Position numbers and translations under genes: made by a program. Shown here one piece after another: positions 34,986 through 59,294 of a DNA stretch of 64,000 nt. The notes beneath the pieces were generated by a model. The model did no database searches, was not told the DNA's origin, and worked only from the letters and a program-made list of their open reading frames with translations. The stretch spans positions 32,001 to 96,000 of the IMG/VR virus record IMGVR_UViG_3300046170_000502. One strand, written 5' to 3'. Each line of letters opens with the position of its first letter. Position 1 is the stretch's first letter. This stretch comes from a virus.

Positions 34986-37544
34986 TTACTTTACTTCAGA
35001 CATTTTCATATATATTTTTTCATCCATAACCCTTATGGAATCCAGAAAAATAATATCCTCAGCCTTTCTTCCGTAAGCGACGACAATATTTTTCTTAGAG
35101 GGTGCTTTTTTATTTTGTTGAAAATATCTGTCATAAAAATTACCCCTTCTTGAGTTTAACAACATTGCACTGTATCTTCCGTTTTCGTCTGCGATTTGAA
35201 GTTTAATATATTTATTTCCGTTTCGAGAGGTTGCTTTTAGCGAATCTTCTATTACTCCTATAAACTTACCTTTTTCGTCCAAGTCCATTAATTCTAAGTC
35301 TGTCGAGTCCTTTAAATCTTTATACAAGTCTATGAAGCAACTTTTTAATTTCGAGCTATGACTATATCCTAGTAGTTCATTTTCAAAATACCAATTCGCA
35401 AAAGTTTCGTATTTTTTATTTTTATCATAAATTGACTTGTACAAGTCATATTTCTTCTTGAATGTCTTGAACCTTGACTCCTTCATTAGTGGTTTTCCAT
35501 CATCTCCTACCATAGACTGATTTTTTGCATCAGAAATACAGTTTAATAATTTATATTCATATTCTTCTCCAAGAAAGATAAAGTTTCTCTTTTCCCTTTC
35601 TGTTAGCAGGTTAAAAGCCTGCGCTTCGAGCGCCATAAGCGACCTATTTGAACCTTTGCTTTCTAGTGCGCCAGCTTGAATCAAAGAGGAAAGAACTCCT
35701 ATGTTAAGACCAGCCTGTTTTGCGGCCAAGAAGATGTCGTATTTTGTTGGGGTATCACTAGATCTAAAGTCCCTCAGTGATTCCAAAGATTTTTCGCTAA
35801 CCCCTTTTATGCTGTTTAAGCCAAAGCGGATGTTTTTTCCCTCTATCGAGAAGTCCATTTTTGATTTTGCTAAATCTGGAGATAGTAGCTTTATTCCGAA
35901 ATTAGCCAGCTCTTTTGACACGGAGGAAATTTCTTCCTGCGGGGCAGGCTCATATTTAGTCATCCTTAATAAAGAAAGGAAAAACTGCTGTGGGTGATTG
36001 AACTTAAGATAAGACGTCCACGCCGCTAATGTTGCATAAGCTAGTGAGTGTGATTTATTAAAAGAATAATTCGCACTGTCCTCCGCTACGCTCCATAAAA
36101 TATCTCCGACTTCCGTAGGAAGATCATTATCAATAATCTTCTGTTGAATCTTTGCTTGCCAAGCAGGCATCTGATCCACTTTTTTCTTCCCGACAATCCT
36201 CCTTAGTTGCTCCGATTCATCTAAAGTAAAACCAACTTTTACCGCCATTTGCATAAGTTGCTCTTGGTACAAAGGAATTCCTCCTGTATAGTCTAAAACG
36301 TCCCTGAAGAATTCATGAATTACTTGAGGCTCTTTTGTCTGCGAATAAGTGGCGTAATCACCCAAAAAATCTAGTGCCCCTGGCCTGCCAATAGCGATAA
36401 CCGCACTAAGCTCCTCAAGATCTTTCGGCTTAATCTTTTTGCAAACTCTGAAATTAGTGTCAGATTCGAGCTGGAATAATCCATGGGGCGAACGCAACGA
36501 CTGAAGTGGCTTGAATATACTTCCATTACTTAAGTCGAGGTCCGATATATCCTCATTAATGTTTTTACATACATCATAAATAACACTCAACGTTCTTAAT
36601 CCAAGGATATCAAACTTCACCATCAATTCTGAGACCCAATTCATATCATAGCCAGTTACTAATGCTCCGTCATTTGTTTTTTGAACGGGGCAAATATCAG
36701 TAATTTTTTGAAAAGAAATAGCTATTCCACTTGGGTGAACTCCTGTATTTTTATTTAAACCTTCAATCTTTAAGGCTATCTCAAAAACATCTGGATGTTC
36801 TGCGGCCCAATCCGCAAATTTTTCGCTTTCTACAATAGCAGTCGAGATGGGAACGACAACTCCAAACTTTTTTGGAATAGTTGAACTTACTAGATTTACG
36901 TCCTGTTCGGAAAGATCGCCTACGATTTTCCCGCATTCTTTTACGCATAATTTTCCACTCAGGGTATTTAATGTTAAAATTTTTGCAGTTCTAGAGGGGT
37001 GTTTTCTTTCGATATATTCAATAACCTCGATTCTTCTTTCGTAAGCGATATCATTATCTACATCAGCCAGAAGGCTTCCGTCGAGATAGGTTATTCCACC
37101 TTTTTCTATCTTTTTCGCTCTACTCTTAGATACAAACCTCTCAAAAAACAAATTATATTTAACAGGGTCTACATTTGTGACCCCGATTAAATAAAGAACC
37201 AGCGACCCTGCTGCAGACCCTCTACCTGGACCTGTTGGGATATCATTTTCATGGCAAAAATTAATAATGTCCCAATTCAAAAGAATATAATCAATGAAAC
37301 CTAGTTCATTTAATATTTTTAATTCTGATTTTGCACGATCAAAATAATCTTTTTTATTTTTAAATTTATCTATTCCTTTATCCTTCACCCCTTTGTGACA
37401 TAACTTACGAAGGAAGTCGTAATTAGATATAGTGTTATCTGCTTCAAGCACATCGTAATACTTTTGCTCGATTTCAATCTCAGGAAGTCTAACTCCTGGA
37501 GGGCAGCACTCTTTGTATTCTGTAAATTGATCTGTAAAACTCAT
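34986..37544 (-). CDS. dnaE: DNA polymerase III alpha catalytic core lacking the PHP domain (start probably 37544)
   Basis: GPGRGSAAGSLV, FERF, ADVDND, HPSG, VKFDILGL, YSFNKSHS, IRFGL..IKG; C-terminal OB fold. Confidence 0.93.
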   Translation of the reverse strand: MSFTDQFTEYKECCPPGVRLPEIEIEQKYYDVLEADNTISNYDFLRKLCHKGVKDKGIDKFKNKKDYFDRAKSELKILNELGFIDYILLNWDIINFCHENDIPTGPGRGSAAGSLVLYLIGVTNVDPVKYNLFFERFVSKSRAKKIEKGGITYLDGSLLADVDNDIAYERRIEVIEYIERKHPSRTAKILTLNTLSGKLCVKECGKIVGDLSEQDVNLVSSTIPKKFGVVVPISTAIVESEKFADWAAEHPDVFEIALKIEGLNKNTGVHPSGIAISFQKITDICPVQKTNDGALVTGYDMNWVSELMVKFDILGLRTLSVIYDVCKNINEDISDLDLSNGSIFKPLQSLRSPHGLFQLESDTNFRVCKKIKPKDLEELSAVIAIGRPGALDFLGDYATYSQTKEPQVIHEFFRDVLDYTGGIPLYQEQLMQMAVKVGFTLDESEQLRRIVGKKKVDQMPAWQAKIQQKIIDNDLPTEVGDILWSVAEDSANYSFNKSHSLAYATLAAWTSYLKFNHPQQFFLSLLRMTKYEPAPQEEISSVSKELANFGIKLLSPDLAKSKMDFSIEGKNIRFGLNSIKGVSEKSLESLRDFRSSDTPTKYDIFLAAKQAGLNIGVLSSLIQAGALESKGSNRSLMALEAQAFNLLTEREKRNFIFLGEEYEYKLLNCISDAKNQSMVGDDGKPLMKESRFKTFKKKYDLYKSIYDKNKKYETFANWYFENELLGYSHSSKLKSCFIDLYKDLKDSTDLELMDLDEKGKFIGVIEDSLKATSRNGNKYIKLQIADENGRYSAMLLNSRRGNFYDRYFQQNKKAPSKKNIVVAYGRKAEDIIFLDSIRVMDEKIYMKMSEVK

Positions 37545-38188
37545 ATTTCTATTTCCCATAGCATTTTCTTGAAAACTTCATAATTAACCTTTATATCGTA
37601 TAATGCATCATGCAGTTTAGTTGCGTCAAAAGGAACATCAAAGTCCTTGCAACACTGCTTGAGATTGCAAGATAGACCCCGTTCAATCAAATGATTTAAT
37701 CTATATTGCCAGGCCAGGAAATTATCTTCCTTGTTTATTTTAATTCTTTTCTTTAGTGCTTTGGCCAGGCAAAGTGTGTCGACTAATTTCTCTGAATAAC
37801 TAAAGTCCGACTCAGCTTTAGGGTTAATTAGTTTTCTATGCAGGTTATGCATGTAAACATCAAATCCTAATAAATTGTGCCCAACCTTAATGTAAGTATC
37901 ATCATACAAATATTTCTCAAAATGATCTAGTGCTCCTTTTGGGTCTACTGCGTTTTTTTTGTATTTGGCCTGAGTAAATCCTGTAATTTTTGCAGCTTCT
38001 GGAGACACCTTAAGGTCGTCCCATTTTAACCAATAATCTTTTTCTTCGACAATTTTATCCCCTTCTATGACGAGGAATGCTAATTGCCATGGTTTATTTT
38101 CTCCAGAAATTAAATTAAGATTGCAGGTCTCATAATCAAAAAGTAAATATTTTTGTTTGTTTTTAAATCTAAGTAATGTTTCTTTCAT
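37541..38188 (-). CDS. dnaQ: DEDDh 3'-5' exonuclease (DnaQ/epsilon-like)
   Basis: FDYET, GHNLLGFD, HDALYD motifs. Confidence 0.88.
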   Translation of the reverse strand: MKETLLRFKNKQKYLLFDYETCNLNLISGENKPWQLAFLVIEGDKIVEEKDYWLKWDDLKVSPEAAKITGFTQAKYKKNAVDPKGALDHFEKYLYDDTYIKVGHNLLGFDVYMHNLHRKLINPKAESDFSYSEKLVDTLCLAKALKKRIKINKEDNFLAWQYRLNHLIERGLSCNLKQCCKDFDVPFDATKLHDALYDIKVNYEVFKKMLWEIEI

Positions 38189-38200
38189 TTATTTATTTAT

Positions 38201-38959
38201 TTATTTATTTTCTTTCCAGCTTTCGAAACTAAATTCGCTACTACCGAAATGATCTAGGTTAGGTTTTGATAAGGTTTTATTACCGAAGCTGCGACTAGTA
38301 ATACATTTATATGTTTGTAGCGCGGATACATCATTCCTACTTTTGTAATAAATACTTTTTACGGATTCTACATTAGATTCATTCTCTTCTGCATATTTTA
38401 TAACCCTGGATCTTAATAGCAAGTCGAAGGGTAGGTTATTATTTTCTAGAAAAAATGTAGGCTTGGCAAACGAAAAATTAGGTGTGCAATTGCTGAATTT
38501 CATAGTATTATTGAATATAAACGAGTCGTAAAAAGGTATTGCTAGCGAAAGGTTCTTGTTGCTCCAGTGTTTTTTTAGTATTTTTTGATCTACCGCATTG
38601 AATGATTCAGAAAAAGCTTCGCTAGATATCGCATTAAGTAATGCGCAACCTTTTGAGTTTTTGGCGAAAATAACAATCTTATGCCTTGAACTATTAGATT
38701 CTTCTTTTGGATTAATCCTTGCATTTTCGCACATATCTAATCTCAAGCCAAAAATTAATTTTACTCCCATAGAATCCGAGACTTTTTTGGCTTGAAGGAA
38801 GCCTGTTAACGAATCTTCTACGAGAATGACTTCTTTAAGATTACTTTCTTTGACTATCGAAAAAACGCTATCAGATTTACCTTCTTTTTGTGACGAAGGA
38901 TCGTCCAGCGTTAGTATGCTTTTTCCTATTGAAAAATGACTTTTAAATAATGGTAACAT
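38201..38959 (-). CDS. stand-alone PHP domain of DnaE
   Basis: KSHFSIGKS, EDSLTG, KLIFG, HKIVIFAKN..G...L echo the DnaE N-terminus; TTGACA-N17-TAAAAT promoter 6 nt from ATG. Confidence 0.8.
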   Translation of the reverse strand: MLPLFKSHFSIGKSILTLDDPSSQKEGKSDSVFSIVKESNLKEVILVEDSLTGFLQAKKVSDSMGVKLIFGLRLDMCENARINPKEESNSSRHKIVIFAKNSKGCALLNAISSEAFSESFNAVDQKILKKHWSNKNLSLAIPFYDSFIFNNTMKFSNCTPNFSFAKPTFFLENNNLPFDLLLRSRVIKYAEENESNVESVKSIYYKSRNDVSALQTYKCITSRSFGNKTLSKPNLDHFGSSEFSFESWKENK

Positions 38960-42573: not shown

Positions 42574-42677
42574 ATTGATGTTATTATAATAGCATTTTAT
42601 TGACCAAGTGTCAACGCAAAACCTCTTATGTCAATAACTTTTACTTAGCTCAAGAGAACTAGGTTACACCTATAATT

Positions 42678-43976
42678 TTAAGACAGTATGTCGAAAAGGG
42701 GAGTTCCTTTGTTCGCTACAGTAAAAGGTCTTCCAGATGGGGAATATTGTACATCATTCAACTTTAAACCCAATAAGTAGCCTATTGTTGCATTTAAATC
42801 CTCGGGCTTAATTGGCTTTCCCTCTTTAGGAGATCTACCTTGGTCGTCTGCCTCTCCGTAAGAAAAGCCTCCTTTAACCCCTCCTCCAGCCATAAATGCG
42901 GTAAAGCAATATGGCCAATGATCTCTTCCGTCTCTACCATTGATATTAGGAGTTCTCCCAAATTCAGAAGTTAATACGACCAAAGTTTCATTTAATAAAC
43001 CTCTCATTTCAAGGTCGATCAATAAAGCGCTCAAGGCTCCATCTATATCCGCACAATTTTCACCAACCCTATCGAAGTTATTATCATGGGTATCCCATCC
43101 ACCCCTGGTCACTTCTACATACCTCACTCCGTTTTCAACTAATCTTCTTGCGAGTAAGCACCCCTGTCCGAAATTCGAAGCGCCGTATTGTTTGTGTATA
43201 TTTTCTGGTTCTTTAGATATATCAAAAGCTTTTAAGTCTTGACTATTCATTAGCTTAATTGCGTCTTTGTATAAATCTGAATATGCTCTTATTTGTTTCT
43301 GAGGGAATTCTGTAGAGAAGTTTGTGTTCAACTTTTCTATCAAAGATATTCTTCCTTGAAAATGCTCTTTATCTAGATATCCCGCTAGTTTACTATTTGC
43401 AAGTCCTGACTTTGGGTTATTTATGGATAGTGGACCATATTTTGACTCAAGAAATCCAGCTCCCAGCCCTCCGCCACCAATTTTAATATTAGATGGAATT
43501 GTTTCGTTGATTGCTCCAGACAATTTAGATACCCAACTCCCAAAAGTGGGGTGAACTATAGTACCCCTTTTTAAGTAGCTCGTATGCATTAGGTAGCTAG
43601 CTTGCTCATGCGCTCCTTGGCTCGTTACCATTGTCTTGATTATTGATGCCTGATGCATTAATTGTGCAGTTTTAGGTAAATGCTCAGAAAGTAATATTCC
43701 GTCGGCGCTGGTAGCGATAGATTTAGTTGGCCCTTGAATATCAGGGCAATCAGGTTTAGTTCCAAAAGTATCTAAATGAGACATAGCTCCTGCCATGTTG
43801 AGATAAATCACATGCCTTGCAGAAGCTAATCTAGCCCCCACTTCAAGAGCTTGAGCATTGTTATGTATATAGGCTCCAGCCATAGGCATCAACCCAACGC
43901 CAAAACACGCCTTTGCCGCGTGTGCGATAAATTCTCTTCTTCCTAATTCATCTATATTATTAAAATTTGTTTTCAT
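42678..43976 (-). CDS. DUF1501-like protein with Tat signal
   Basis: GRREFI twin-arginine, GAMSHLDTF, FGQGCLLARRLVE.GVR, GGWDTH, SEFGRTP, RDHWP, GGGVKGG. Confidence 0.85.
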   Translation of the reverse strand: MKTNFNNIDELGRREFIAHAAKACFGVGLMPMAGAYIHNNAQALEVGARLASARHVIYLNMAGAMSHLDTFGTKPDCPDIQGPTKSIATSADGILLSEHLPKTAQLMHQASIIKTMVTSQGAHEQASYLMHTSYLKRGTIVHPTFGSWVSKLSGAINETIPSNIKIGGGGLGAGFLESKYGPLSINNPKSGLANSKLAGYLDKEHFQGRISLIEKLNTNFSTEFPQKQIRAYSDLYKDAIKLMNSQDLKAFDISKEPENIHKQYGASNFGQGCLLARRLVENGVRYVEVTRGGWDTHDNNFDRVGENCADIDGALSALLIDLEMRGLLNETLVVLTSEFGRTPNINGRDGRDHWPYCFTAFMAGGGVKGGFSYGEADDQGRSPKEGKPIKPEDLNATIGYLLGLKLNDVQYSPSGRPFTVANKGTPLFDILS

Positions 43977-43992
43977 ATATTTTTTCCTTTTA

Positions 43993-46239
43993 TTATTTTA
44001 TAAAGATGTATTCATGCGAATTTACTAAAGCCCATATTATTTCTTTATATATATCTTTTTTGTTTATTAGTGCGTCTTTGAATAATTTTAACTCTGCTAT
44101 AGAGGGTTTTCTATTTAAAATAGATTTAAAACCGACTTTTATTTTATCATCTAATGTTTTTTGTTCTTTTATTAATTTTACTATCTCTGAGTTTTTATTG
44201 TTTATAACTTTTGTTTCAATAAAACCATTAATTAAATTAAGAACTTGTGTTGTTGATGGGTCTGTATTTGAGTTTTCAATTTGTTCACGATCTGAGCCTC
44301 CAAATTCTCTAACTATATGACCTACGGGAGCTGGAGAACTTAATTCTGATGCTCGAACGGAGTTTCTATCTTTTACGAAATTATTCTTATCTTGCTGTTT
44401 TTTCTGAGAATTAAATTTTTCTACGCAAGACTTACAGCAGAACGCAAGAGTTTCTCCGTTTTCGTTTAGCGCTAATAAAGTTGGGTCAATAGCTCGACCA
44501 GGTTTGATTGGGCAGTCTATATTAATTGGGTTTCCAAATTTTTGATTGGTCTTGGGTTTTTGCGTTTTATTTATTCGAGACAATAATTCTTCAAGCAGCC
44601 CTTCTCCTGTCATGCTAGAAAACCTCTCAAAATCCTGATAGCCTGAATTTTTTGGCTGAAGTCTTCGAGAGTCTATATCCTTAAAATTCAAAGAGACTAA
44701 TGAATCCCACAGTTGCTCGCCACTCATCCTTTGCAAAATGGGGCCCTGATAGAAAAACGGAACTGCATTGAAAGATTGTTTTTCAACATTTGGTCCAGCA
44801 ATCACCCATTCAACGCCCACTGGCATAACAGTATCTTTTTCGTCTCTAGGTACAATATCTCTAGAAACAGATTGTCTTTGAAAGGTTTTTGTGTTGTAAA
44901 GTATTCTTAAGAACTCCTTTATGTCAAAATTTAATGCAACCATAACTTTTTCTAAATGAAGCTGTAATACTGGATCTGTTGCCATAGTCTCGTCAAACAT
45001 ATTATCTATTGGCTCAATTAGAGCTAACCCAAAAACCTCTTTCCATAATCTATTAACAATGACAGATGTAAATCTTGGGTTTTTTTCTGACGCCAACCAG
45101 TTTGCGTATAGCTCTCTTGAGCCAGTACCTTTGGCAAGTTCTATTTCTCGACCAAAAAGAGTTTTTCCTAAAAGGGATTCGTTTGGTTTTGCGTTGTCGT
45201 ATTGATAATCTTTAGGTAAATTGATTTTACCTGACCCTGGCTGATCTAGCCCCGCTTGCAATATATCTTGTATTGACCTTGAAGCATTTCTAACTTGAGG
45301 TACTTTTTGAGGCTCCCCAGCTTCCTCCAACCTTTTCTGTTCTTCTCTGACTAGTTTATTGAATTGGTTGAGATTGTCAACCCCTTTTCTTCTAAGATTT
45401 GTAGAACCACTGGTAAACGCAGCCATCTCATAAAATTCTTTTTGTGTCCATCTATCAAATGGATGATCGTGGCATTGCGCGCATTCTAAACTTGTGCCAA
45501 GGAAGATTCGGACGGTGTTAGCCATATTATCTAAAGGCATACCTGCATCTCTTGCAAAATAACCTACCCCTTCACTGCCTTTCTTCCATATAGGACCAGA
45601 AGAAGAGAGCATTTCTCTTACCCATTTATCATATGGTCTATTTTCAGATATAAATTGTTTGACATAATTTTTATATGGAATTCCTGATATTCTATTAGTT
45701 AATCTATCTTTTAATCTTAATATATCTGCCCAAAAGTTAAACCAATGACTATTGTATCCCTCGCTAGCTAATAAATCGTCTATGAGTTTTGTTCTTTTAT
45801 TCTTGTCTCTATTTTCGATAAAGCTATTCACTTCCTTGTAAGAAGGTGTTCTGCCTATTATTTTTAGATACGCTCTTCTAGAAAACGAAGAATCATTAAT
45901 TTCTTTATTAGGTCTTTGATTATAAGATCTTAATTTATTTTCGATTAGTTGATCTATGTACCTTGAATTTTTAATTAAATCTTGATCGGATAATGGTTTT
46001 TTAAATTTTGGTAAATTTTCGTGACCTGGGGCGAAGTTATTTTTCACATAAGCTTGATTGTCTTTTGTTAATAGTTTAAGAGGTATTCTAAAAAGTTGGA
46101 AGTCATCTTCTCTTTTGACAACAACATGCGTGCTGTTAGATTCTATTATTTCCCCTCTAATATTATTTCCATCATTAAAATATAAAACATCTCCAGAACA
46201 AAATAAAGATGATAAAATTAATAAAAATAAGTGTTTCAT
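43993..46239 (-). CDS. secreted SHD1-like + DUF1549 + DUF1553 protein with YHS/TRASH-like insert (start revised to 46239)
   Basis: Signal peptide MKHLFLL; RRAYLKIIGRTP; FLGTSLECAQCHDHPFD (CxxCH); NPRF..VIVNRLW; CPI...FCCKSC; LNLING; WALVNSHEY. Confidence 0.85.
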   Translation of the reverse strand: MKHLFLLILSSLFCSGDVLYFNDGNNIRGEIIESNSTHVVVKREDDFQLFRIPLKLLTKDNQAYVKNNFAPGHENLPKFKKPLSDQDLIKNSRYIDQLIENKLRSYNQRPNKEINDSSFSRRAYLKIIGRTPSYKEVNSFIENRDKNKRTKLIDDLLASEGYNSHWFNFWADILRLKDRLTNRISGIPYKNYVKQFISENRPYDKWVREMLSSSGPIWKKGSEGVGYFARDAGMPLDNMANTVRIFLGTSLECAQCHDHPFDRWTQKEFYEMAAFTSGSTNLRRKGVDNLNQFNKLVREEQKRLEEAGEPQKVPQVRNASRSIQDILQAGLDQPGSGKINLPKDYQYDNAKPNESLLGKTLFGREIELAKGTGSRELYANWLASEKNPRFTSVIVNRLWKEVFGLALIEPIDNMFDETMATDPVLQLHLEKVMVALNFDIKEFLRILYNTKTFQRQSVSRDIVPRDEKDTVMPVGVEWVIAGPNVEKQSFNAVPFFYQGPILQRMSGEQLWDSLVSLNFKDIDSRRLQPKNSGYQDFERFSSMTGEGLLEELLSRINKTQKPKTNQKFGNPINIDCPIKPGRAIDPTLLALNENGETLAFCCKSCVEKFNSQKKQQDKNNFVKDRNSVRASELSSPAPVGHIVREFGGSDREQIENSNTDPSTTQVLNLINGFIETKVINNKNSEIVKLIKEQKTLDDKIKVGFKSILNRKPSIAELKLFKDALINKKDIYKEIIWALVNSHEYIFIK

Positions 46240-46275
46240 GATAAATAGTAAATAAAAGTAAGGATATTTACACAC

Positions 46276-46301
46276 AAAAAAGCCGCCAAAAGGCGGCTTT
46301 T
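46276..46301 (-). terminator. intrinsic terminator (possibly bidirectional)
   Basis: AAGCCGCC-AAAA-GGCGGCTT flanked by A- and T-runs. Confidence 0.85.
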
Positions 46302-46320: not shown

Positions 46321-46560
46321 CTACTCTTTTGGAGAATTTGGTTTTAAAAGCGCAACTAGAAGAAGTAATGTAATTACTCCCGCCAAGGATGCGCCTTGAC
46401 CAACAAATCCTGTCACGACATCCTGTAGGTTGCCGATTACGTTAATAGGAGCTCCCTCGCCAAAGACGACTTGAGCTACGACCAAAAGGCCGATGATTGA
46501 CAGAAGCACGCTTGTAACGCCTCCTGCATATGATTTAATCGTATCGATTGTATTTTTCAT
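46321..46560 (-). CDS. small two-TM membrane protein
   Basis: Two hydrophobic helices. Confidence 0.75.
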   Translation of the reverse strand: MKNTIDTIKSYAGGVTSVLLSIIGLLVVAQVVFGEGAPINVIGNLQDVVTGFVGQGASLAGVITLLLLVALLKPNSPKE

Positions 46561-46573: not shown

Positions 46574-47227
46574 TTAGAATTGCGTTGAGATTCCCAATCC
46601 AACCACATATTCTTCACCAATAGTCTCTGAATCAACCCTAAAGAGATCTAATCCAATAGATGATTTTTCACCTAAAGATCTGGATGCCTCTAGTCCGATA
46701 GTATAGTATGTGTTATCAGTGGAGTTGGATGCATCGGTGTTACCTAATGAACCTAAAACATTTAGATCGCACACTTGCAGATCAAAACTATGTGATATAG
46801 ATAGTTCGTAGGTGTAGAGAGAGTCATCCAGCTGCCTGAATAAGCTAAAAGATGGGTTAAGTAAGGTGTCAATACCGACACCAATATGACCTTCCAATGC
46901 AGCTGATCCAGTAACATTTTCTACATGATTCAATCCAACATAAAAATCTAAAAGCGAATCCAAAAAGCTCTTAGAAACTCCTCCAGCGAGAACGTATGAA
47001 TCTACTCCTGAATTAACAGATTGGTTTGTGAATGCTCCTACAGAATAATCTAGTCCGGAAACTTTTCCACTCATGCCTAAATCTACTTGAATAGATTCTT
47101 GAGCTTGTAGTGTGCCTCGATAAAAATAATCGGAAGCGTATTTTGTTCCTAGAGAAAAACTCTCCGCAGAAGCGACGTTGATAAAAAGCCCCAAGAGGGC
47201 TGTGATAATTAATTTTGTTGTCTTCAT
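46574..47227 (-). CDS. outer-membrane beta-barrel protein (TorF/putative porin-like)
   Basis: Signal peptide, ASDYFYRG motif, alternating aromatic strands, terminal Phe. Confidence 0.75.
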   Translation of the reverse strand: MKTTKLIITALLGLFINVASAESFSLGTKYASDYFYRGTLQAQESIQVDLGMSGKVSGLDYSVGAFTNQSVNSGVDSYVLAGGVSKSFLDSLLDFYVGLNHVENVTGSAALEGHIGVGIDTLLNPSFSLFRQLDDSLYTYELSISHSFDLQVCDLNVLGSLGNTDASNSTDNTYYTIGLEASRSLGEKSSIGLDLFRVDSETIGEEYVVGLGISTQF

Positions 47228-47268: not shown

Positions 47269-47664
47269 TCAAGTTATTTTTATTCTTGAACTTGTTTTAT
47301 TTTTAATTTTAGGTATTTTTATATTCAATAATCCATTATTCATGGTTGCGGATACATTTTTTGAATCCATGTCGTTTTGTAGTTTGTATTTATTTTCAAA
47401 AGAACCAAATGATATTTGTTGCTGTGAATATTTTGTATCATCTTTTATTTTGTTTTCGTATGATACATGTAATATATTTTCTTTTACTTGTATATCTATA
47501 TCTTTTTTATTTAATCCTACTGCTTCAATTTGAATTAAGATATGATCTTCTTCTTTTATAATGTTGGATTTTCTTTTAGGGTTTAAATCTTCATAGTAGA
47601 TATCATCTAATAAAGAATTAAAAAATGAATCTAAAGAATTATTGTTTTTAATATAATATGACAT
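47269..47664 (-). CDS. small heat-shock protein Hsp20 (start revised to 47664)
   Basis: IEAVGLNKKDIDI, GSFENKYKL, ATMNNGLLNIKIPK; AAGGAG SD before ATG. Confidence 0.9.
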   Translation of the reverse strand: MSYYIKNNNSLDSFFNSLLDDIYYEDLNPKRKSNIIKEEDHILIQIEAVGLNKKDIDIQVKENILHVSYENKIKDDTKYSQQQISFGSFENKYKLQNDMDSKNVSATMNNGLLNIKIPKIKNKTSSRIKIT

Positions 47665-47751
47665 ATTGTCTCCTTGTTTTGATTGTGGTTTATGTAGTGT
47701 GTAAATGTGTCTCAATAAAGACTGTATTATTGAATTTACAATACTATATTT

Positions 47752-49257: not shown

Positions 49258-50295
49258 TTATTTTTGCCTTGTTAGAAGCATGTAATCACTTTGATACATT
49301 TTTTTGACAAGTCCTGCAAAGTCCGTTTTTCTCTTCCACCCCATTTCTTTTTCCGCAAGAGATGGATCTCCGCATAGTTCGTGAACTTCTGCAGGCCTGT
49401 AAAATTTAGGGTCAACTTCAAAAAATAATCTTCCGTCAGTCGTATGATACTTTTCTTCGACTTCGGTTCCAGAAGTTTCGAATTGAATGTTTGCATTGTT
49501 CAAGGATTCGTTAAGGAATTCTCTAACTGTGTGCATTTCTCCACTCCCAAGCACATAATTTTTTGGCGTTTTCTGGTTAAGCATTAGCCAAACCCCTTCC
49601 ATAAAATCCTCTGCATCACTCCAATCTCTTTGGGCCTCTATATTTCCAAGCTTTAATATGGGTAATTTTTGACCTTTCTCTATAGCAATTTTAATTCTAG
49701 CAATTGTGTGAGTTATTTTTCGAGTTACAAAATCAAGACCCCTTCGACTGCCTTCGTGATTAAACAGCCAACCTTGGATGGCGTATATTTTATAGGACTC
49801 TCTGTATACGCGAACAATATGTCTTGCCCCGCATTTTGCGGCACCATAAGGCGATTGAGGTCGAAGTGGGTGCTCTTCATTTTGAGGTGAATAAATGACA
49901 TCCCCAAACTCTTCACTTGATCCGGCATTGTAAAATCTACATTGCGGCGCGAATCGACGAATAGATTCAAGAATGTGGAGCACAGCATTAGCATCTGTGT
50001 CCCATGTTTGAATCGGATAATTCCAACTGCCTGCAACAAAAGATTGCGCTGCGAAATTTATAAAGTAGTCTGGCTGAATATCCAATATTATATCACGCAT
50101 GCTATGCGCATCATTCAAATCCATATCAATTAGATGAAATCGCGACTCATTTTCTAGATGCAAAATGTTTTCGTGATTTTTAACACTCAACCTTCTTACT
50201 GAGCCATATATTTCATGGCTAGTATTTTTTAATAGATAATCAACCATATGACTTCCGTCTTGGCCGGTGACTCCTGTTACTATTATTTTTTTCAT
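49258..50295 (-). CDS. gmd: GDP-mannose 4,6-dehydratase
   Basis: TGVTGQDGSH, FAAQSFV, YNAGSSEEFG, SPYGAAK, FNHEG, RDWSDA, FYRPAEV. Confidence 0.95.
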   Translation of the reverse strand: MKKIIVTGVTGQDGSHMVDYLLKNTSHEIYGSVRRLSVKNHENILHLENESRFHLIDMDLNDAHSMRDIILDIQPDYFINFAAQSFVAGSWNYPIQTWDTDANAVLHILESIRRFAPQCRFYNAGSSEEFGDVIYSPQNEEHPLRPQSPYGAAKCGARHIVRVYRESYKIYAIQGWLFNHEGSRRGLDFVTRKITHTIARIKIAIEKGQKLPILKLGNIEAQRDWSDAEDFMEGVWLMLNQKTPKNYVLGSGEMHTVREFLNESLNNANIQFETSGTEVEEKYHTTDGRLFFEVDPKFYRPAEVHELCGDPSLAEKEMGWKRKTDFAGLVKKMYQSDYMLLTRQK

Positions 50296-50313
50296 TTTAA
50301 ATTATATATTTAG

Positions 50314-50940
50314 TTAAAGTTTTTTATAAACATCATCTATATGTAGTTTTTGTATCTTTTCGTATCCCAAAGATTCCAGAAATTTAGTAATACTTGTTTT
50401 GTTGTAGTTGTTCTCAATCAATAAAACGTCGATAGACACTTTGTCAAAATCAATTCCATGAATGATTTGTTCTTCCGATCCTTCTGTGTCAATGGAGCAA
50501 AAGTCGATTTTACTTATATTATGTTTCTCTAGCAAGCTTTGTAGGGTTGTAGTTTTTACTTTAATAACCTCAGAACCATTGTTGCGAGGGTTTTGTATTT
50601 CAAATTTTATTCTCTGTTGATGAATAGGATCATACTTGTCGACCAAACCGCTTAAACCCTTGCCGTAGCCAGAAATATCAAGAAAGTCACATTCTCCATC
50701 TCTATCTGATACAGCTACATTTTCGCAGATACAATTTCTGTTTTTTTCCAACAACTTATATCTCATTGGGCTTGCTTCAATACATAATCCTGTCCAACCT
50801 AATTCCTCAAAAAGTTTTGTGTTGCTTTTATCGACACCATCATCGGCGCCAATTTCTACAAATACCCCATTTTCTTTATCAGAAAAAATATTTTCAAATA
50901 ACCATGTATCTTGATTGTATTGACTGTATGTTTTCATGAT
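50314..50940 (-). CDS. FkbM-family SAM methyltransferase
   Basis: YSQYNQD, FVEIGADDG..SNT, IDFCSIDTEGSE. Confidence 0.88.
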   Translation of the reverse strand: MMKTYSQYNQDTWLFENIFSDKENGVFVEIGADDGVDKSNTKLFEELGWTGLCIEASPMRYKLLEKNRNCICENVAVSDRDGECDFLDISGYGKGLSGLVDKYDPIHQQRIKFEIQNPRNNGSEVIKVKTTTLQSLLEKHNISKIDFCSIDTEGSEEQIIHGIDFDKVSIDVLLIENNYNKTSITKFLESLGYEKIQKLHIDDVYKKL

Positions 50941-51725
50941 AATATATTGTGTATCGTTGACCAAATATTATATTTGTTTAATATCAAATTTCTAGCTTCT
51001 TGCATAGCTTTAATTTCTTGATTGGAAATAGGTTTACCTGCAATTTCCATAATTTGATCGGGTTGATCAAGATTGATTGATCGATACGACCCCTCTGGGA
51101 AGAATTGGTCAATGTTCGGACATCCCCAATATAAGGGCATGCACCATGATAGTATTGAATCTGTTATTTTTTCTGTGAAGTAGTTTTCTTGCGAGCAATT
51201 TTCAATACAAATAGACATGGAGTACTGGGAAAAAGCATTCCACCTTTGTTCGGAAGTTACAGATTTACCTGTGAAGATATTACCAAAATAATCAACATGA
51301 TCTGCAAAATTAGCAATGATTGATTTAATGAATAATGTTCTATGTAGGTGTTTGCTGCTTGAAACTGCACTTATGTGTTTATATTTTTTTGTATAACTTT
51401 CTGTTTCGAGTAAGCTATACGAGCTAGGTGTTCTTGTGCAGACATGATATTTGTCTACTGAGGAGTAGTCAAAATTACTGAAGAAAGATGTCGGAGCATT
51501 CCAAGGTTTTATAATATTAGGCTCGCGGCGAAAATGTACTGAATTTGCGCGACTAATTGACGGTATATCAAGGCAAACAATGTAGTCTGATAGTTGTATA
51601 TCTTGCGCACCAATAATATTTTTCCATACGCCTGAATTATTAGGTGTTAATTGAGAATATTGATTTAATAAGACTTGCGGTTTATCCCCCCAAGAAGATA
51701 TAAATCCTACTCGCGTGTCAGTCAT
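50934..51725 (-). CDS. glycosyltransferase family 10 (fucosyltransferase-like)
   Basis: YSMSICIENCSQENYFTEKI.D....CMPLYWGCPNI alpha-1,3-FucT motif. Confidence 0.82.
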   Translation of the reverse strand: MTDTRVGFISSWGDKPQVLLNQYSQLTPNNSGVWKNIIGAQDIQLSDYIVCLDIPSISRANSVHFRREPNIIKPWNAPTSFFSNFDYSSVDKYHVCTRTPSSYSLLETESYTKKYKHISAVSSSKHLHRTLFIKSIIANFADHVDYFGNIFTGKSVTSEQRWNAFSQYSMSICIENCSQENYFTEKITDSILSWCMPLYWGCPNIDQFFPEGSYRSINLDQPDQIMEIAGKPISNQEIKAMQEARNLILNKYNIWSTIHNILS

Positions 51726-53694
51726 TACTGATAGAACCGATCAATCGAACGTCTTCAATATCTTTTGGCTCATTGCGTTTTTGTTTTAGTTTTTTAATAA
51801 TTTCTAATGAAGCAAATTTAATATCATTGAAGCAAAAATGATTAAAGTTATTGTATAAGATGTCATGTTTGTGTGTTGGGTAGAAAGATAATTCTTGTTC
51901 GTGAGAATTTATCGAATTAATTCCTTGTATGATGTGCGATGAATTTTGATGTATATAGTCTAGGTCTCTTGCGTTTCTTAATCCAAACAATTGTAATACT
52001 GCGCTACCTGTGACACAAAAATTTTCAGATAGCAAATTTGCCTCCTTGAGTATTTTTCTATAAGTTATCAATAGCTTCCAGAAGTCGCTAGAAAGATCGA
52101 TTGTTGCATGATTCATAAAATGAATACAATTGTTGTTAAAGGCAGCTCTAACAGCTCTAACAGTTTGTTCGTGCGTATCATTTATGTGGACCGAAGGTTT
52201 CCCAATTTTGTAAAGATCTCTGATTTGACTTTTTAAAGCATTAGCTAAATCTATATCTGCACACTCAATTAAATATGCTTTTACCGTAGATTTACCCAAA
52301 CACTTTTGGGTTTGATGTTTTATACCTGCCAATGGGTCTTGTTGTGTAGAAATCCAAGGTTCGCCAAAATACATTTGACTAATATAGTTATGCAAGCCGT
52401 TTTCATTTAATGGTAGATTTTTTTCATAAACTACAGGAACGGATTGTTTGATTATTCGATCCACTGCGCTTGCTTGATCTGAGCTTTCATTTCTGGCAGG
52501 ATATAATGTTAAAAGTTTGCAGTTAGGTTTAATATACGCATATTCTGTTGCAATTACATCAAGATACTTTTCTGTAAGTTTTGCAGATTTAAAATAATAG
52601 CTACTACAGTTTTTCTGCCCAGCTTGAGGTTCATTTGTAGTGATCACCGAAGGAACTCTGTTATGAAAAATCGAAGCGGATATTCTGTGCGAGCCATTCA
52701 AAAGATTGCCTGCGCTATCAACTGGAACAGGAAATTGTTCGTCAAAGCCGTTTGTTTTTATTGAATCTAGCACGTTATTAAAGTCTTGCTTGTATTTATC
52801 GTAACTATTTTTTTCTGGCTGATCATATTCAATAAATTTATTACTTGTAAAAGATCTTAGATGTTCTTTATAGACATCTTCTGCAAAATTACTTTGGATA
52901 TTGAATTCTCTATATTTCGCATACAACAATTTGGCGATAATGTCAAATCTTAATGGAGTTAGATACTGTGCTGCAATGTTGATTGGGTGATATGGTTTTT
53001 TGCTTCTCGCAAAGTTTGCGCATTTATTTTGCTCTGCAGCAGAAACCTTATGATCATTTATTGGATTGCCTTCGTTATATATGTAATTGATTTGCGGAGT
53101 AAATTTAATATGTTTGTGGGTTGCCATTTCAACCATAGGAAACATAAAAAAAGTATCACCTCCGCGTTTAGCATACCATCCAGTCTCATCAAAAAGATCT
53201 TGTTGTGCAATTTTCCTCCATAAAAAAACTCTCCAAGATCGTAAAGCGCATAAGCCGAAATGCGAAGTTCGCGGGCTTGTTTCTGGGGTTATAGCTTTTG
53301 CAAATCCAGCTCGACCATCACTATACTGGAATTGTCCGTATGTTAACCAGGTGTCGGGGTTTTTATATTCTTTAGATATTCTTTCGAATACTAAATTATC
53401 TGGCAGCCAATCATCCCCATCTACTTGAATCGCGATATCATCGTCAGAAACTCTGTCAGATCTCAAAATTTGATCATAGTTGCCTGGTTGGTATAATTTT
53501 TTTGTATTATTTACAATGATAAATCTCCCATCTTTTTTCGAAATTTCTTCCGCTGCTTGTAATGTGCCGTCGGTTGATAAATCATTAAGAATATAACACT
53601 CGAAGTTTTTGAATGTTTGATCTTGGATAGAGTGAAGACATTTTTGTATCCATGTCTCGCAATTGTATGCAGTTGTCAGTACTATGATTTTCAT
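51718..53694 (-). CDS. GT2 glycosyltransferase fused to ParB-like and nucleotidyltransferase-like domains
   Basis: TTAYNCE..I, NDLSTDGT, VDGDDWL; then LLNGSHRIS; then VTGSAVL...ARDLDY. Confidence 0.75.
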   Translation of the reverse strand: MKIIVLTTAYNCETWIQKCLHSIQDQTFKNFECYILNDLSTDGTLQAAEEISKKDGRFIIVNNTKKLYQPGNYDQILRSDRVSDDDIAIQVDGDDWLPDNLVFERISKEYKNPDTWLTYGQFQYSDGRAGFAKAITPETSPRTSHFGLCALRSWRVFLWRKIAQQDLFDETGWYAKRGGDTFFMFPMVEMATHKHIKFTPQINYIYNEGNPINDHKVSAAEQNKCANFARSKKPYHPINIAAQYLTPLRFDIIAKLLYAKYREFNIQSNFAEDVYKEHLRSFTSNKFIEYDQPEKNSYDKYKQDFNNVLDSIKTNGFDEQFPVPVDSAGNLLNGSHRISASIFHNRVPSVITTNEPQAGQKNCSSYYFKSAKLTEKYLDVIATEYAYIKPNCKLLTLYPARNESSDQASAVDRIIKQSVPVVYEKNLPLNENGLHNYISQMYFGEPWISTQQDPLAGIKHQTQKCLGKSTVKAYLIECADIDLANALKSQIRDLYKIGKPSVHINDTHEQTVRAVRAAFNNNCIHFMNHATIDLSSDFWKLLITYRKILKEANLLSENFCVTGSAVLQLFGLRNARDLDYIHQNSSHIIQGINSINSHEQELSFYPTHKHDILYNNFNHFCFNDIKFASLEIIKKLKQKRNEPKDIEDVRLIGSISND

Positions 53695-54545
53695 TATAAT
53701 TGATTAATTTTATCCCAAAAAATTTGCGGAGCATTCATACAGTTGTGTGCGAATTTTTCTTTCCCAAGGCGTTGATACTCTTGTAGAGACCCTATTTTGG
53801 ATTCGTCACCCCGAAACTCTTTCACTCCACACAAAATTGCTTCGGCAACCATTCTACAAAATGGCTCATTGACAATTGGGCTGTGAAATATTGTTCTCGA
53901 TTTTTGATATACATCCGCAGTTGATGCATGGTCTATGCGCCCATTGTATTTTATGTTTGAGTGAGGCTCAATTAGGTTTTCAAAATCAAAAGATGACCAT
54001 CCAAAGATATCTACTTTTCTGTTGCAATTCTCTTTTGCGAATTTTATTAAATTATGCAAGCCTTTTAATTCGTGTATAAATCCACAATATACGACATCAT
54101 ATATTTTGTCTTGAGGTTGTGTTTTAAATATGTCCGTGTCGATTGGGTCGGGTACAATTTCTATATTCGGAAAAATGTCTCCATACATCGAGCGAAAAAA
54201 TGAAACATGAAATTCAGACAGAAAGAAATTAATTTTAGTTGATGCAAAGAGTTGCTTGCGTAAATTTACCCCAAGGTAAAGGCACGAGTCATGCTCTAGT
54301 CTGACATGCCTCGGGTGTTTAAGTATGAAGTCTAATTTGTCTGGAGTTTTATTGTAGATGATTTCTAGGTTCGAGCTAACAATCAAGTCGTATGAACACA
54401 AGAAGTCTGTATATGGGCTATCAAAATTGTGGAGTACAATTTCGTGACCTAGATCTTTGCCTTTTTTTATTATAGCGTCGTTGCTAACCTGGGCTCCCCC
54501 GCCATTATGCTCCAAGTTAAAGTCGCTAATAAATAATACTTTCAC
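53694..54545 (-). CDS. GT4/GT-B glycosyltransferase
   Basis: YCGFIHELKG, EPFCRMVAEAILCG. Confidence 0.8.
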   Translation of the reverse strand: MKVLFISDFNLEHNGGGAQVSNDAIIKKGKDLGHEIVLHNFDSPYTDFLCSYDLIVSSNLEIIYNKTPDKLDFILKHPRHVRLEHDSCLYLGVNLRKQLFASTKINFFLSEFHVSFFRSMYGDIFPNIEIVPDPIDTDIFKTQPQDKIYDVVYCGFIHELKGLHNLIKFAKENCNRKVDIFGWSSFDFENLIEPHSNIKYNGRIDHASTADVYQKSRTIFHSPIVNEPFCRMVAEAILCGVKEFRGDESKIGSLQEYQRLGKEKFAHNCMNAPQIFWDKINQL

Positions 54546-58883: not shown

Positions 58884-59294
58884 TTAAAGATTAACACCAA
58901 AAGTTTTAAATATTTCTTCATCAAGCTCGCTTTCTTTATACACCTCTACCAAGTGGATGCCGTTGAGTTCGCAAAATCTAAGTTTATCAGAGTCTCTTCT
59001 GAGTTGATTTATATAGTTAATTTTATTGCCTCCATGAAAAAATGGTACATACCTCGTGTGTTGTTGCCCTTGAACTTCTATCGCTATTTTTTTATTAGCA
59101 TTATAAAAATCAAGAGATAGCTTGGTCCCTGCAATAGGAAACTCTTCAAAGACTATATGCTTAATCCAATATTTTTTTAAAAACTGCTTCGTATTAAACT
59201 GTATTTTACTCCTACTCTTGCCGTCCCAGTCTATTAAGAATTTTTTAGACTTTTTTACTGTTCTTTCTGCTCCGGTTAAGGTTTTAAAGCGCAT
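58884..59294 (-). CDS. DUF559/Vsr-like endonuclease
   Basis: EEF...LDFY...IAIEVQGQQH...D..K. Confidence 0.75.
   Translation of the reverse strand: MRFKTLTGAERTVKKSKKFLIDWDGKSRSKIQFNTKQFLKKYWIKHIVFEEFPIAGTKLSLDFYNANKKIAIEVQGQQHTRYVPFFHGGNKINYINQLRRDSDKLRFCELNGIHLVEVYKESELDEEIFKTFGVNL

What the first reader, a model, noticed from the sequence alone, without database searches (positions are those of the whole stretch)
42678..46239. Phage carries a complete PVC-specific DUF1549/DUF1553 + DUF1501 secreted module
Seen: a Sec-signal protein with SHD1-like, DUF1549 (CxxCH motif CAQCH), DUF1553 and YHS/TRASH-like (CPI...FCCKSC) parts, followed by a Tat-signal DUF1501 protein. Both look intact and sit behind the phage GTGTA motif. 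Known: this gene pair is a highly expanded signature of Planctomycetes/Verrucomicrobia with unknown function. Inference: a lytic-looking phage keeping 3.5 kb of it under a phage promoter motif suggests a periplasmic heme/metal-dependent function useful during infection. This offers a tractable handle on an uncharacterised system and supports a PVC host.
Basis: partly seen in the sequence, partly recalled or inferred. Interest (0 to 1): 0.8.

Follow-up and report, generated by a model that had tools for sequence, protein, structure and literature searches.

The report
Phage-borne PSCyt2/PSD1 plus DUF1501 gene pair
An uncultured ~190-kb marine phage carries an intact, strongly conserved copy of a two-gene exported module of unknown function (a haem-motif helper protein and a phosphatase/sulfatase-fold enzyme) taken from marine Opitutales bacteria; related phages took or swapped the same one of the host's 15-30 paralogues several times, so it probably matters during infection.

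Summary
On the minus strand, 43993-46239 encodes a 748-aa Sec-signal protein: an SHD1-like barrel, PSCyt2/DUF1549 with an invariant CAQCHDH motif, PSD1/DUF1553, and one weak TRASH-like Cys motif. 42678-43976 encodes a full-length, twin-arginine DUF1501 protein. The window is phage DNA (terminase, split Pol III, RNR, DnaB, primase).

At least 57 related IMG/VR contigs carry the gene, always among replication and nucleotide genes. dN/dS is about 0.04-0.05 and GC3 matches the phage. The closest cellular relatives are marine Opitutales, at 73-78% for DUF1501. A single phage clade is rejected (AU p 1e-10); the trees show five phage clades.

Each candidate host genome has 15-30 DUF1501 matches, yet four of the five phage clades come from one single-copy subfamily. 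The host locus also holds a PSCyt1-LRR cytochrome gene and a multihaem cytochrome. Phages drop these, trim the TRASH repeats (2, then 1, then 0), and sometimes keep DUF1501 alone.

A related phage's pair is predicted to bind (ipSAE 0.85, best control 0.00). DUF1501 has an alkaline-phosphatase-superfamily fold without the sulfatase formylglycine motif. The biochemical function remains unknown.

This scan already found the same pair in at least 26 other phage genomes. I found no published report.

The parts
46278..46301 (.). GC-rich hairpin with T-runs on both sides. It acts as a terminator closing the upstream unit (orf217-orf79) and separates it from the pair.
46265..46273 (-). GTGTAAATA, which holds the phage GTGTA promoter-like motif, 34 nt upstream of the gene A ATG.
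   Evidence: The 5-mer is enriched upstream of genes (11 of 83 against about 2 expected). It recurs upstream of gene A in 15 of 18 phage relatives, at -14/-15 or -33/-35, and is absent upstream of 4 cellular orthologues.
43993..46239 (-). Gene A, 748 aa: Sec-type signal, SHD1-like barrel (aa 14-68), PSCyt2/DUF1549 (aa 95-277), PSD1/DUF1553 (aa 375-468 plus C-terminal helices 660-748). PSD1 is split by a low-confidence insert (aa 561-659).
   Evidence: AlphaFold model: mean pLDDT 83.3.
45469..45483 (-). CAQCH motif (aa 253-257), followed by D258 and H259. C253, A254, C256, H257 and H259 are invariant across 45 homologues. It is a candidate haem c attachment site or metal site.
44404..44514 (-). 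Single TRASH/YHS-like Cys motif, CPIKPGR...FCCKSC (aa 576-612). Cellular orthologues have two tandem copies and phage clade P2 has none.
   Evidence: E 0.035, below cut-off. Cellular orthologues give weak YHS and TRASH hits.
43977..43992 (-). 16-nt spacer with an AGGA ribosome-binding site between the gene A stop and the gene B ATG. There is no terminator, so the two genes are probably co-transcribed.
42678..43976 (-). Gene B, 432 aa: twin-arginine signal plus a full-length DUF1501 domain with an alkaline-phosphatase-superfamily fold.
   Evidence: Model pLDDT 84.8; VIA Z 20.8 to ENPP6, about 20 to PafA/NPP, about 19 to sulfatases.
43929..43943 (-). Twin-arginine motif G-R-R-E-F (aa 12-16). R13 and R14 are invariant in 35-46 homologues.
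42586..42614 (-). Sigma-70-like promoter (TTGACA, 17 nt spacer, TG-n-TATTAT) for the downstream RNR large-subunit gene. It marks the 3' limit of the cassette.

Best explanation
This is a host-derived auxiliary gene pair of a large marine phage that infects Opitutales (Verrucomicrobiota).

Gene A is exported through Sec and gene B through Tat. In the periplasm the C-terminal helices of A's PSD1 domain clamp the helical cap of the DUF1501 enzyme, forming a two-subunit complex. The phage expresses the pair from its own promoter motif. This sustains or boosts one particular host periplasmic reaction while host gene expression fails, much as cyanophages carry psbA.

B is the catalytic, dose-limiting part, because some phages keep B alone and would rely on the host's A.

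Shown here: homology, intactness, phage context, purifying selection, Opitutales origin, repeated capture or replacement of one paralogue subfamily, the alkaline-phosphatase-superfamily fold, and predicted binding in a related pair.

Inferred: export routes (from motifs), haem or metal binding, expression timing, and the reaction itself.

My best guess for the reaction, at about 35% odds, is metal-dependent cleavage of a phospho- or sulfo-ester of a small periplasmic organic substrate. That would release phosphate or sulfate for phage nucleotide and protein synthesis. The chemistry would not be classical, because the formylglycine motif is absent and part of the usual metal motif is replaced.
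For: - Domain calls.
- Phage context: terminase; Pol III alpha/PHP/exonuclease, RNR, DnaB, primase, PD-(D/E)XK nuclease; PhoH, ligase, RecA-like.
- 46 IMG/VR loci share the backbone and carry DUF1501. In an exonuclease-anchored scan about 32 of 38 close relatives have a DUF1501 in the same region.
- dN/dS medians are 0.040 (B) and 0.054 (A), with synonymous sites saturated.
- GC3 is 0.25 for A and 0.31 for B. Phage core genes give 0.30-0.33 and host orthologues 0.32-0.42.
- Cellular nearest relatives are Opitutales MAGs at 71-78%, on contigs without phage genes.
- The trees show five phage clades. P1 is sister to one Opitutales clade and P2 is nested in another. Phage monophyly is rejected (delta lnL 148, p-AU 1e-10).
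- Host genomes hold 15-30 DUF1501 matches, but only one copy each of the captured subfamily.
- Complex prediction on the P2 phage pair of L022: ipSAE 0.85 in three runs, best of three controls 0.00. Runs agree in at least 69% of contacts and partner pLDDT is at least 86. The mark was reached by 58 of 80 solved complexes and 2 of 110 mismatched pairs; these counts hold only roughly because my own alignments were used. The interface uses conserved residues: W702, N706 and E709 of A against R209 and helices 203-243 of B. Sequence searches with the window's A and B found no solved relative, so recall of a known complex is unlikely.
- Fold.
- Phage promoter motif.
Against: - No experiment or expression data exist.
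- The complex was predicted for a related phage pair (53% and 73% identical to the window's A and B), because the window's own pair exceeds the size limit.
- Signal peptides were judged by motif only.
- The CxxCH motif may not bind haem. No cytochrome-like fold was found for the core, and the extra invariant His suggests a possible Cys2His2 metal site.
- The host operon includes cytochrome genes, which hints at redox chemistry rather than simple hydrolysis.
- DUF1501 lacks the [CS]x[PA]xR motif in 35 of 35 members. A profile alignment puts E338-F339 where sulfatases have the D-H/N metal ligands, so the hydrolase analogy may fail.
- About 6 of 38 close relatives lack the gene in this region, so it is not essential.
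Confidence: 0.75

Rival explanations
1. The pair is part of a periplasmic redox enzyme, not a hydrolase. The CxxCH protein carries haem c and passes electrons between host cytochromes (the PSCyt1-LRR protein and the multihaem-TPR protein) and a metal centre in DUF1501. The phage boosts an oxidative or reductive step, such as oxidative cleavage or detoxification of a periplasmic compound.
For: - The CAQCH motif is invariant.
- In every Opitutales locus examined the pair is followed by a PSCyt1 cytochrome c + LRR gene and, where the flank is covered, preceded by a multihaem cytochrome-TPR gene.
- The Tat signal fits a cofactor-loaded enzyme (Kamneva et al. 2012, PMC3542564).
- The canonical hydrolase nucleophile motif is absent.
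Against: - Phages never carry the cytochrome partners.
- The CxxCH region is not at the predicted A-B interface.
- To my knowledge no redox enzyme is known in the alkaline phosphatase superfamily (own knowledge).
- The helper's core gave no cytochrome-like fold match.
Confidence: 0.2
2. The pair remodels the host envelope to block superinfection or alter receptors. DUF1501 would act as an LtaS/EptA-like transferase, moving a phospho-group onto a surface glycan or lipid.
For: - LtaS and LtaP are among the Foldseek matches (E about 2e-6).
- The phage carries a large glycosylation cluster nearby at 49258-54545 and exported or membrane proteins next door (orf217, orf79).
Against: - LtaS and EptA have membrane anchors, whereas DUF1501 is a soluble Tat substrate.
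- The captured gene is a conserved single-copy host housekeeping-type paralogue with a conserved host operon. A phage-specific exclusion factor would be expected to diverge fast, yet dN/dS is 0.04.
Confidence: 0.07
3. The pair is a neutral passenger or an assembly chimera with no role in infection.
For: - Some close relatives lack it in this region.
- Two relatives have shortened DUF1501 reading frames: L040 403 aa and L041 383 aa.
Against: - The same arrangement appears in dozens of independently assembled contigs from different samples.
- Codon composition matches the phage.
- dN/dS is 0.02-0.10 with saturated dS.
- The same subfamily was captured or replaced repeatedly.
- It is wired to a phage promoter motif.
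Confidence: 0.03

Closest known systems
The DUF1501 + PSCyt1/PSCyt2/PSD1 'conserved genetic module' of Planctomycetes, Verrucomicrobia and Lentisphaerae (Kamneva et al. 2012, PMC3542564; He et al. 2017, PMC5615132)
   Same: The two Pfam architectures and the gene order (helper first, DUF1501 second) are the same. The enzyme has a twin-arginine signal, the helper has a signal peptide and a CxxCH motif, and the function is unknown.
   Different: - It is carried by a phage and driven by a phage motif.
- It is reduced: no PSCyt1 domain or gene, one TRASH repeat instead of two, and no carbohydrate-binding module.
- It is single-copy rather than one of 15-30 paralogues.
The orthologous chromosomal locus of marine Opitutales MAGs (e.g. 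Candidatus Seribacter sulfatis, NZ_CAXLMO010000115; Opitutia UBA3151)
   Same: It belongs to the same orthologue subfamily: B is 73-78% identical and A 52-57%. Both have the SHD1-like N-terminus, the TRASH-like insert and the GAMSHLDT variant of the DUF1501 N-terminal motif.
   Different: - The host helper is about 841 aa with two TRASH repeats.
- The host locus continues with PSCyt1-LRR, a SufS-like gene, a sulfatase, a glyoxalase-family gene and an LMW phosphatase/ArsC-family gene. It is preceded by a multihaem cytochrome-TPR gene. None of these is in any phage.
DUF1800-DUF1501 operon pairs of Proteobacteria (Goncalves et al. 2016, PMC5122149)
   Same: Both pair a Tat-exported DUF1501 enzyme with an adjacent all-helical partner of unknown function. 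7 of 35 PSCyt2/PSD1 helpers give weak DUF1800 hits, best E 0.0018.
   Different: No PSCyt2 or CxxCH domain was reported for the DUF1800 partners. The homology between PSD1 and DUF1800 is only a weak lead here.
Alkaline phosphatase superfamily enzymes: NPP/ENPP6 phosphodiesterases, PafA phosphatase, formylglycine sulfatases
   Same: They share the core fold: VIA Z 20.8 (rmsd 3.0, 244 aligned) to ENPP6, about 20 to PafA/NPP and about 19 to sulfatases; Foldseek E 2.9e-9 to steroid sulfatase.
   Different: - Sequence identity is only 11-16%.
- There is no [CS]x[PA]xR formylglycine motif.
- E338-F339 align where sulfatases have the D-H/N metal ligands.
- The family has its own invariant set (T70, H123, WDTHD 294-298, GRDH 350-353).
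- It needs a dedicated helper subunit.
Phage auxiliary metabolic genes that replace a limiting host component (cyanophage psbA, pstS, phoA; own knowledge)
   Same: The gene is host-derived, under purifying selection and embedded in phage modules. It has been gained repeatedly and often reduced to the key subunit.
   Different: The reaction is unknown. The products are exported to the periplasm as a two-protein complex, and the host is Verrucomicrobial.

Membership tests
Pfam PSCyt2 (DUF1549, PF07583) | Profile match above the gathering score | tested here: met
   148.7 bits against 29.8, residues 95-277, profile positions 2-205 of 209
Pfam PSCyt2 (DUF1549, PF07583) | Conserved CxxCH motif | tested here: met
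   CAQCH at 253-257; C253, C256, H257 and H259 invariant in 45 sequences
Pfam PSD1 (DUF1553, PF07587) | Profile match above the gathering score | tested here: met
   87.4 bits against 28.5, in two stretches split by the TRASH-like insert
Pfam DUF1501 (PF07394) | Full-length profile match above the gathering score | tested here: met
   360.1 bits against 27, profile positions 1-389 of 390
Pfam DUF1501 (PF07394) | Twin-arginine (Tat) signal | tested here: met
   GRREFI with invariant R13 and R14, then a hydrophobic stretch. Judged by motif; no signal-peptide predictor was available.
PVC DUF1501 + PSCyt/PSD1 module (Kamneva et al. 2012) | Adjacent, co-oriented helper and DUF1501 genes | tested here: met
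   16-nt spacer with an RBS. The same adjacency holds in almost all of the cellular loci examined.
PVC DUF1501 + PSCyt/PSD1 module (Kamneva et al. 2012) | The two products work together physically | tested here: met
   Prediction only, on the related phage pair of L022: ipSAE 0.85, best control 0.00. The mark was reached by 58 of 80 solved and 2 of 110 mismatched pairs. This is not a measurement.
c-type cytochrome | Covalent haem bound at CxxCH | not testable with these tools
   The motif and Sec export fit. No cytochrome fold was matched for the core, which is inconclusive.
Alkaline phosphatase superfamily | Core alpha/beta fold | tested here: met
   VIA Z 19-20.8 over residues 50-432; Foldseek E down to 2.9e-9
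Formylglycine (type I) sulfatases | C/S-x-P/A-x-R motif carrying the formylglycine nucleophile | tested here: not met
   Absent from the window's protein and from all 35 aligned DUF1501 proteins
NPP/PafA-type phosphoesterases | Thr/Ser nucleophile and a two-metal site (Asp/His ligands) in canonical positions | tested here: inconclusive
E338-F339 align to the sulfatase D-H/N motif.
TRASH/YHS metal-binding domains | Profile match and Cys pattern | tested here: inconclusive
   The Cys pattern is present. TRASH_HVO_1752_C gives E 0.035, 14.7 bits against 27. Orthologues give YHS E 2.9e-5 and TRASH E 5.5e-5, all below their cut-offs. Model pLDDT is under 50 here.
SHD1 (Sla1 homology domain 1)-like barrel | Fold match to SHD1 | tested here: met
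   2hbp: VIA Z 7.3, rmsd 2.6, 61 of 66 aligned; Foldseek TMt 0.66. There is no Pfam SHD1 hit, and Hfq/Tudor barrels score close behind.
Phage auxiliary (host-derived) gene | Nested among cellular homologues, flanked by phage genes, under purifying selection | tested here: met

The most novel reading that the evidence does not exclude
The phage pair is a minimal, self-sufficient form of a new class of two-subunit periplasmic enzyme. In this class an alkaline-phosphatase-fold catalytic subunit has a remodelled active site and is clamped by a haem- or metal-bearing helical subunit. One specific paralogue is captured again and again because it supplies a nutrient, or removes a compound, that limits phage production in marine Verrucomicrobia. 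Solving this small version would reveal the chemistry of a family with many paralogues per genome across Planctomycetota and Verrucomicrobiota.
Probability: 0.3. Interest if true: 0.8.

Novelty: new variant of a known kind. Interest (0 to 1): 0.6.

Why it matters
The DUF1501 + PSCyt/PSD1 pairs are among the most expanded orphan gene families of Planctomycetes and Verrucomicrobia, and nothing is known of their chemistry.

Phages have picked one paralogue subfamily out of 15-30 per host genome. They stripped it to two genes, or to one, and keep it under strong selection. That points to the catalytic core and to a reaction that limits phage yield, and it gives a compact target for expression, structure and assays.

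The pair also names marine Opitutales as the probable host of an abundant group of roughly 185-215 kb ocean phages that have no cultured member.

Tried and rejected
- No whole genome is held for the window.
IMG/VR and GTDB loci were used instead.
- GenBank phage records hold no DUF1501 by tblastn.
- Sequence searches of the PDB found nothing for either protein. A DUF1501 profile reached only sulfatases, at E 3.5e-4 over the C-terminal third.
- Foldseek and the VIA wide search found no fold match for the helical PSCyt2/PSD1 core (best Z under 6). Only the SHD1-like N-terminus matched. For a 748-residue model this does not show a new fold.
- The 9-mer GTGTAAATA is not enriched in the window (20 matches against 23.5 expected). 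Only the 5-mer GTGTA, positioned upstream of starts, is enriched.
- ARAGORN found no tRNA upstream of DUF1501 in relatives. Rfam showed these sequences are tmRNA genes.
- orf217 and orf79 were considered as parts of the module and rejected. They are backbone genes, also present in relatives without DUF1501, and RNR genes separate them from the pair in clade P2.
- Literature searches (DUF1501, DUF1549, DUF1553, DUF1800, Opitutales phage, Seribacter) found no report of a phage-borne copy and no functional study.
- The window's own pair is too long for the complex tool (over 1000 residues even after trimming), so a related phage pair was used.
- Model coordinates are not exposed, so active-site geometry and the surroundings of the CxxCH motif could not be inspected.


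Full report
**What is there.** Two adjacent ORFs on the minus strand fill the stated interval. Gene A (43993-46239) starts at the ATG at 46239. Homologues align from that Met, while the longer GTG frame would run into the upstream terminator. Gene A encodes 748 aa with PSCyt2/DUF1549 (148.7 bits) and PSD1/DUF1553 (87.4 bits). Gene B (42678-43976) encodes 432 aa with a full-length DUF1501 domain (360.1 bits, profile 1-389 of 390). A 16-nt spacer with an AGGA ribosome-binding site joins them.

Upstream of gene A lie a strong hairpin terminator (46278-46301), then GTGTGTAAATA, then the start. Downstream of gene B a sigma-70-like promoter precedes the RNR large-subunit gene. The pair is therefore a self-contained cassette.

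- A's N-terminus is a typical Sec signal, judged by eye.
- Residues 14-68 fold as a small barrel that matches Sla1 homology domain 1 (VIA Z 7.3, rmsd 2.6, 61 aligned; Foldseek TMt 0.66).
- CAQCH sits at 253-257. C253, A254, C256, H257 and also H259 are invariant in 45 homologues.
- The TRASH/YHS-like part is a Cys pattern inside a low-confidence insert (residues 561-659, pLDDT under 50). Pfam support is below threshold in the phage protein (E 0.035) and weak in the orthologues.
- B begins with GRREFI. The two arginines are invariant.

**The window is phage DNA.** It encodes a large terminase. It also encodes a Pol III alpha core with separate PHP and exonuclease genes, class I RNR, ClpB-like and HSP20 chaperones, DnaB, primase, a PD-(D/E)XK nuclease and a glycosylation cluster, plus PhoH, DNA ligase and a RecA-like protein. 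Notes of this scan describe the genome as an uncultured marine phage of about 190 kb.

**Relatives.**
- A scan of IMG/VR with B gave 46 loci at 60-100% identity, on contigs of up to 214 kb.
- Nearly all share the window's backbone: DnaB, primase, nuclease, NUDIX, GDP-mannose dehydratase, DUF5824, HSP20, orf217, orf79, RNR, PHP, exonuclease, Pol III, ClpB. DUF1501 always lies in this replication and nucleotide region, but in different slots.
- A second scan was anchored on the exonuclease. About 32 of 38 close relatives with enough flank carry a DUF1501 there. Nine of those loci hold a much more divergent pair (clade P4: B 50-52%, A 36-41%). Two more distant relatives hold a distant lone DUF1501 (P5, 33%).
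- P4 alone has more than 120 distinct 90%-identity clusters at 70% identity or more. All are unnamed, and many lie on contigs of 185-216 kb.
- GenBank phages have no copy.

**Not a chimera, not decaying.**
- Pairwise dN/dS within the window's clade has medians of 0.040 (B) and 0.054 (A), with synonymous sites saturated.
- GC3 is 0.25 for A and 0.31 for B. Phage core genes give 0.30-0.33 and host orthologues 0.32-0.42.
- Two relatives have shortened B frames (L040, L041). I did not follow these up.

**Origin.**
- In GTDB genomes the nearest cellular homologues of B are marine Opitutales/Opitutia MAGs at 71-78%, including Candidatus Seribacter sulfatis. After these there is a drop to 51% or less.
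- Those contigs carry no phage genes, have 38-53% GC, and have the helper gene directly upstream.
- One 'Cellvibrionales' contig of 211 kb (L069) is a mis-binned phage.
- In an IQ-TREE tree the phage sequences form three clades. P1 (27 rows, including the window) is sister to one Opitutales clade. P2 is nested inside another. P3 is basal.
- With P4, P5 and wider cellular sampling the tree needs five label changes, and strongly supported branches force at least four.
- An AU test rejects a single phage clade (delta lnL 148, p 1e-10). The group was named after the tree was seen, which weakens that test.
- Helper identities are congruent with this. P2's helper is 72-76% identical to the clade that holds its B, so that pair moved together.
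- Independent capture and allelic replacement by recombination with the host cannot be told apart here.

**One paralogue out of many.** Five Opitutales genomes of 2.2-3.7 Mb each give 15-30 DUF1501 matches. Only one match per genome belongs to the captured subfamily; for example G001:C115 is the L064 locus, at 355 bits. P1-P4 all fall in that subfamily. Capture is therefore selective rather than random.

**What the phage left behind.**
- In every Opitutales locus the order is helper, DUF1501, a PSCyt1 (cytochrome c) + LRR protein, often a PAS-like gene, a SufS-like aminotransferase, a sulfatase, a glyoxalase-family gene and an LMW phosphatase/ArsC-family gene. A multihaem cytochrome-TPR gene lies upstream where the flank is covered. 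No phage locus holds any of these extra genes.
- Host helpers are about 841 aa with two tandem TRASH-like repeats. P1 phages keep one repeat and P2 phages keep none.
- A P1 subclade (L019, L020, L045), some P2 members, all of P3 and P5 carry DUF1501 alone. The enzyme is thus the part that phages retain.

**Structure and binding.**
- B's model (pLDDT 84.8) has the alkaline-phosphatase-superfamily fold. Matches are ENPP6, NPP and PafA at Z 20-20.8 and sulfatases at Z about 19, with Foldseek E down to 2.9e-9.
- B has no formylglycine motif (0 of 35 members). In a profile alignment E338-F339 stand where sulfatases have their D-H/N metal ligands.
- The family's own invariant residues (T70, H123, W294-D298, G350-H353) are all present in the phage copy.
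- A's model (pLDDT 83.3) is mostly helical and has no solved relative for the core.
- The window's pair is too long for the complex tool. I therefore folded the TRASH-less P2 pair of L022 (A residues 100-714, B residues 50-432) with paired alignments.
- The result was ipSAE 0.85 in all three runs, with 0.00 as the best of three controls. Runs agreed in at least 69% of contacts and partner pLDDT was at least 86. The mark was reached by 58 of 80 solved complexes and 2 of 110 mismatched pairs. These counts hold only roughly because my own alignments were used.
- The interface joins the last helices of PSD1, including the conserved W..L.NS.EF end (W736, N740, E743 in the window's numbering), to B's helical cap (residues 161-243, with invariant R209). 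The CxxCH motif is not at the interface.
- This is support from a model, not a demonstration of binding.

**Regulation.**
- GTGTA occurs within 80 nt upstream of 11 of 83 predicted genes, against about 2 expected. It often sits exactly 9-15 nt before the ATG.
- It lies upstream of gene A in 15 of 18 phage relatives, at -14/-15 or -33/-35, although the surrounding sequence differs. It is upstream of none of 4 cellular orthologues.
- The pair is therefore wired to a phage signal. I could not decide whether that signal is early or late.

**Interpretation.**
- The solid part: this is a host-derived, selected, exported two-protein module from Opitutales, kept by a large family of marine phages.
- The mechanism I favour: the phage tops up a dose-limiting periplasmic enzyme, with or without its clamp subunit, so that one host reaction keeps running during infection.
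- The fold, the Tat and Sec routing, the position next to nucleotide-synthesis genes and the presence of PhoH fit scavenging of phosphate or sulfate from an organic ester. I put this at about 35%.
- The cytochrome genes in the host locus and the remodelled active site keep a redox role open, at about 20%.
- Envelope modification and a neutral passenger are unlikely.

**Prior knowledge.**
- The module was described as a conserved orphan system by Kamneva et al. 2012 (PMC3542564) and He et al. 2017 (PMC5615132).
- DUF1800-DUF1501 operons in Proteobacteria look related (PMC5122149; weak DUF1800 hits in 7 of 35 helpers).
- I found no paper reporting phage copies.
- This scan has already noted the same pair in at least 26 other phage genomes, with similar conclusions. 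My tests reach the same reading independently.
- New here: the conserved host operon, the TRASH trimming series, the single-copy subfamily among 15-30 paralogues, and the mapped interface.

Noticed in passing
L069:7627-7992, L013:7228-7661, L031:2339-2705: Related phages encode a full-length tmRNA (Rfam RF00023, 102-132 bits) that ends about 10-45 nt upstream of the DUF1501 cassette. ARAGORN missed all three. The window itself has no tmRNA.
   Followed up: partly
window 46574-47227 (-) and 46321-46560 (-): orf217 has a signal peptide, a C-terminal Phe and a weak TorF-family porin hit (E 0.0044), so it is probably an outer-membrane beta-barrel. orf79 is a small protein with two predicted membrane helices. 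Both are backbone genes of this phage group, not part of the cassette.
   Followed up: partly
window, e.g. upstream of 20614, 27535, 32000, 34970(-), 49233(-), 58866(-): GTGTA(A/T)T sits 9-15 nt before the ATG of several genes. This leaves no room for a leader, so it looks like a promoter for leaderless or near-leaderless mRNAs.
   Followed up: partly
window 34986-38959 (-): The replicative polymerase is split into three ORFs: a PHP domain (38201-38959), an RNase T-like exonuclease (37541-38188) and a Pol III alpha core (34986-37559).
   Followed up: no
window 32493-34970 (-) and 47269-47715 (-): The phage encodes a ClpB/ClpA-type double AAA+ chaperone and an HSP20 small heat-shock protein.
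   Followed up: no
window 49258-54545 (-): A sugar-modification cluster: GDP-mannose 4,6-dehydratase, an FkbM methyltransferase, a GT10 fucosyltransferase-like gene, and GT2 and GT1 glycosyltransferases.
   Followed up: no
window 17892-18506 (+): A PhoH-like gene, common in marine phages. DNA ligase (854-2044), a GP88-family gene (10401-11225) and a RecA-like recombinase (59284-60390, -) are also present.
   Followed up: no
L069 (JAYQMT010000004.1, 210,818 bp, 'Cellvibrionales' MAG): This contig has 35% GC and carries the phage backbone genes orf217 and orf79, the tmRNA and a phage-clade DUF1501. It is a near-complete phage genome binned into a bacterial MAG.
   Followed up: partly
L138, L149, L153, L162, L163, L164, L173, L186, L187 (clade P4); L175, L177 (P5): Close backbone relatives carry a different, much more divergent helper + DUF1501 pair (B 50-52% identical) in the same region. 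That clade has more than 120 protein clusters with no named cellular relative among them. Two further phages carry a lone DUF1501 from another subfamily (33%).
   Followed up: partly
L040:10089-11300, L041:10001-11152: Two relatives have shortened DUF1501 reading frames (403 aa and 383 aa). These may be frameshifts, assembly errors or decaying copies.
   Followed up: no
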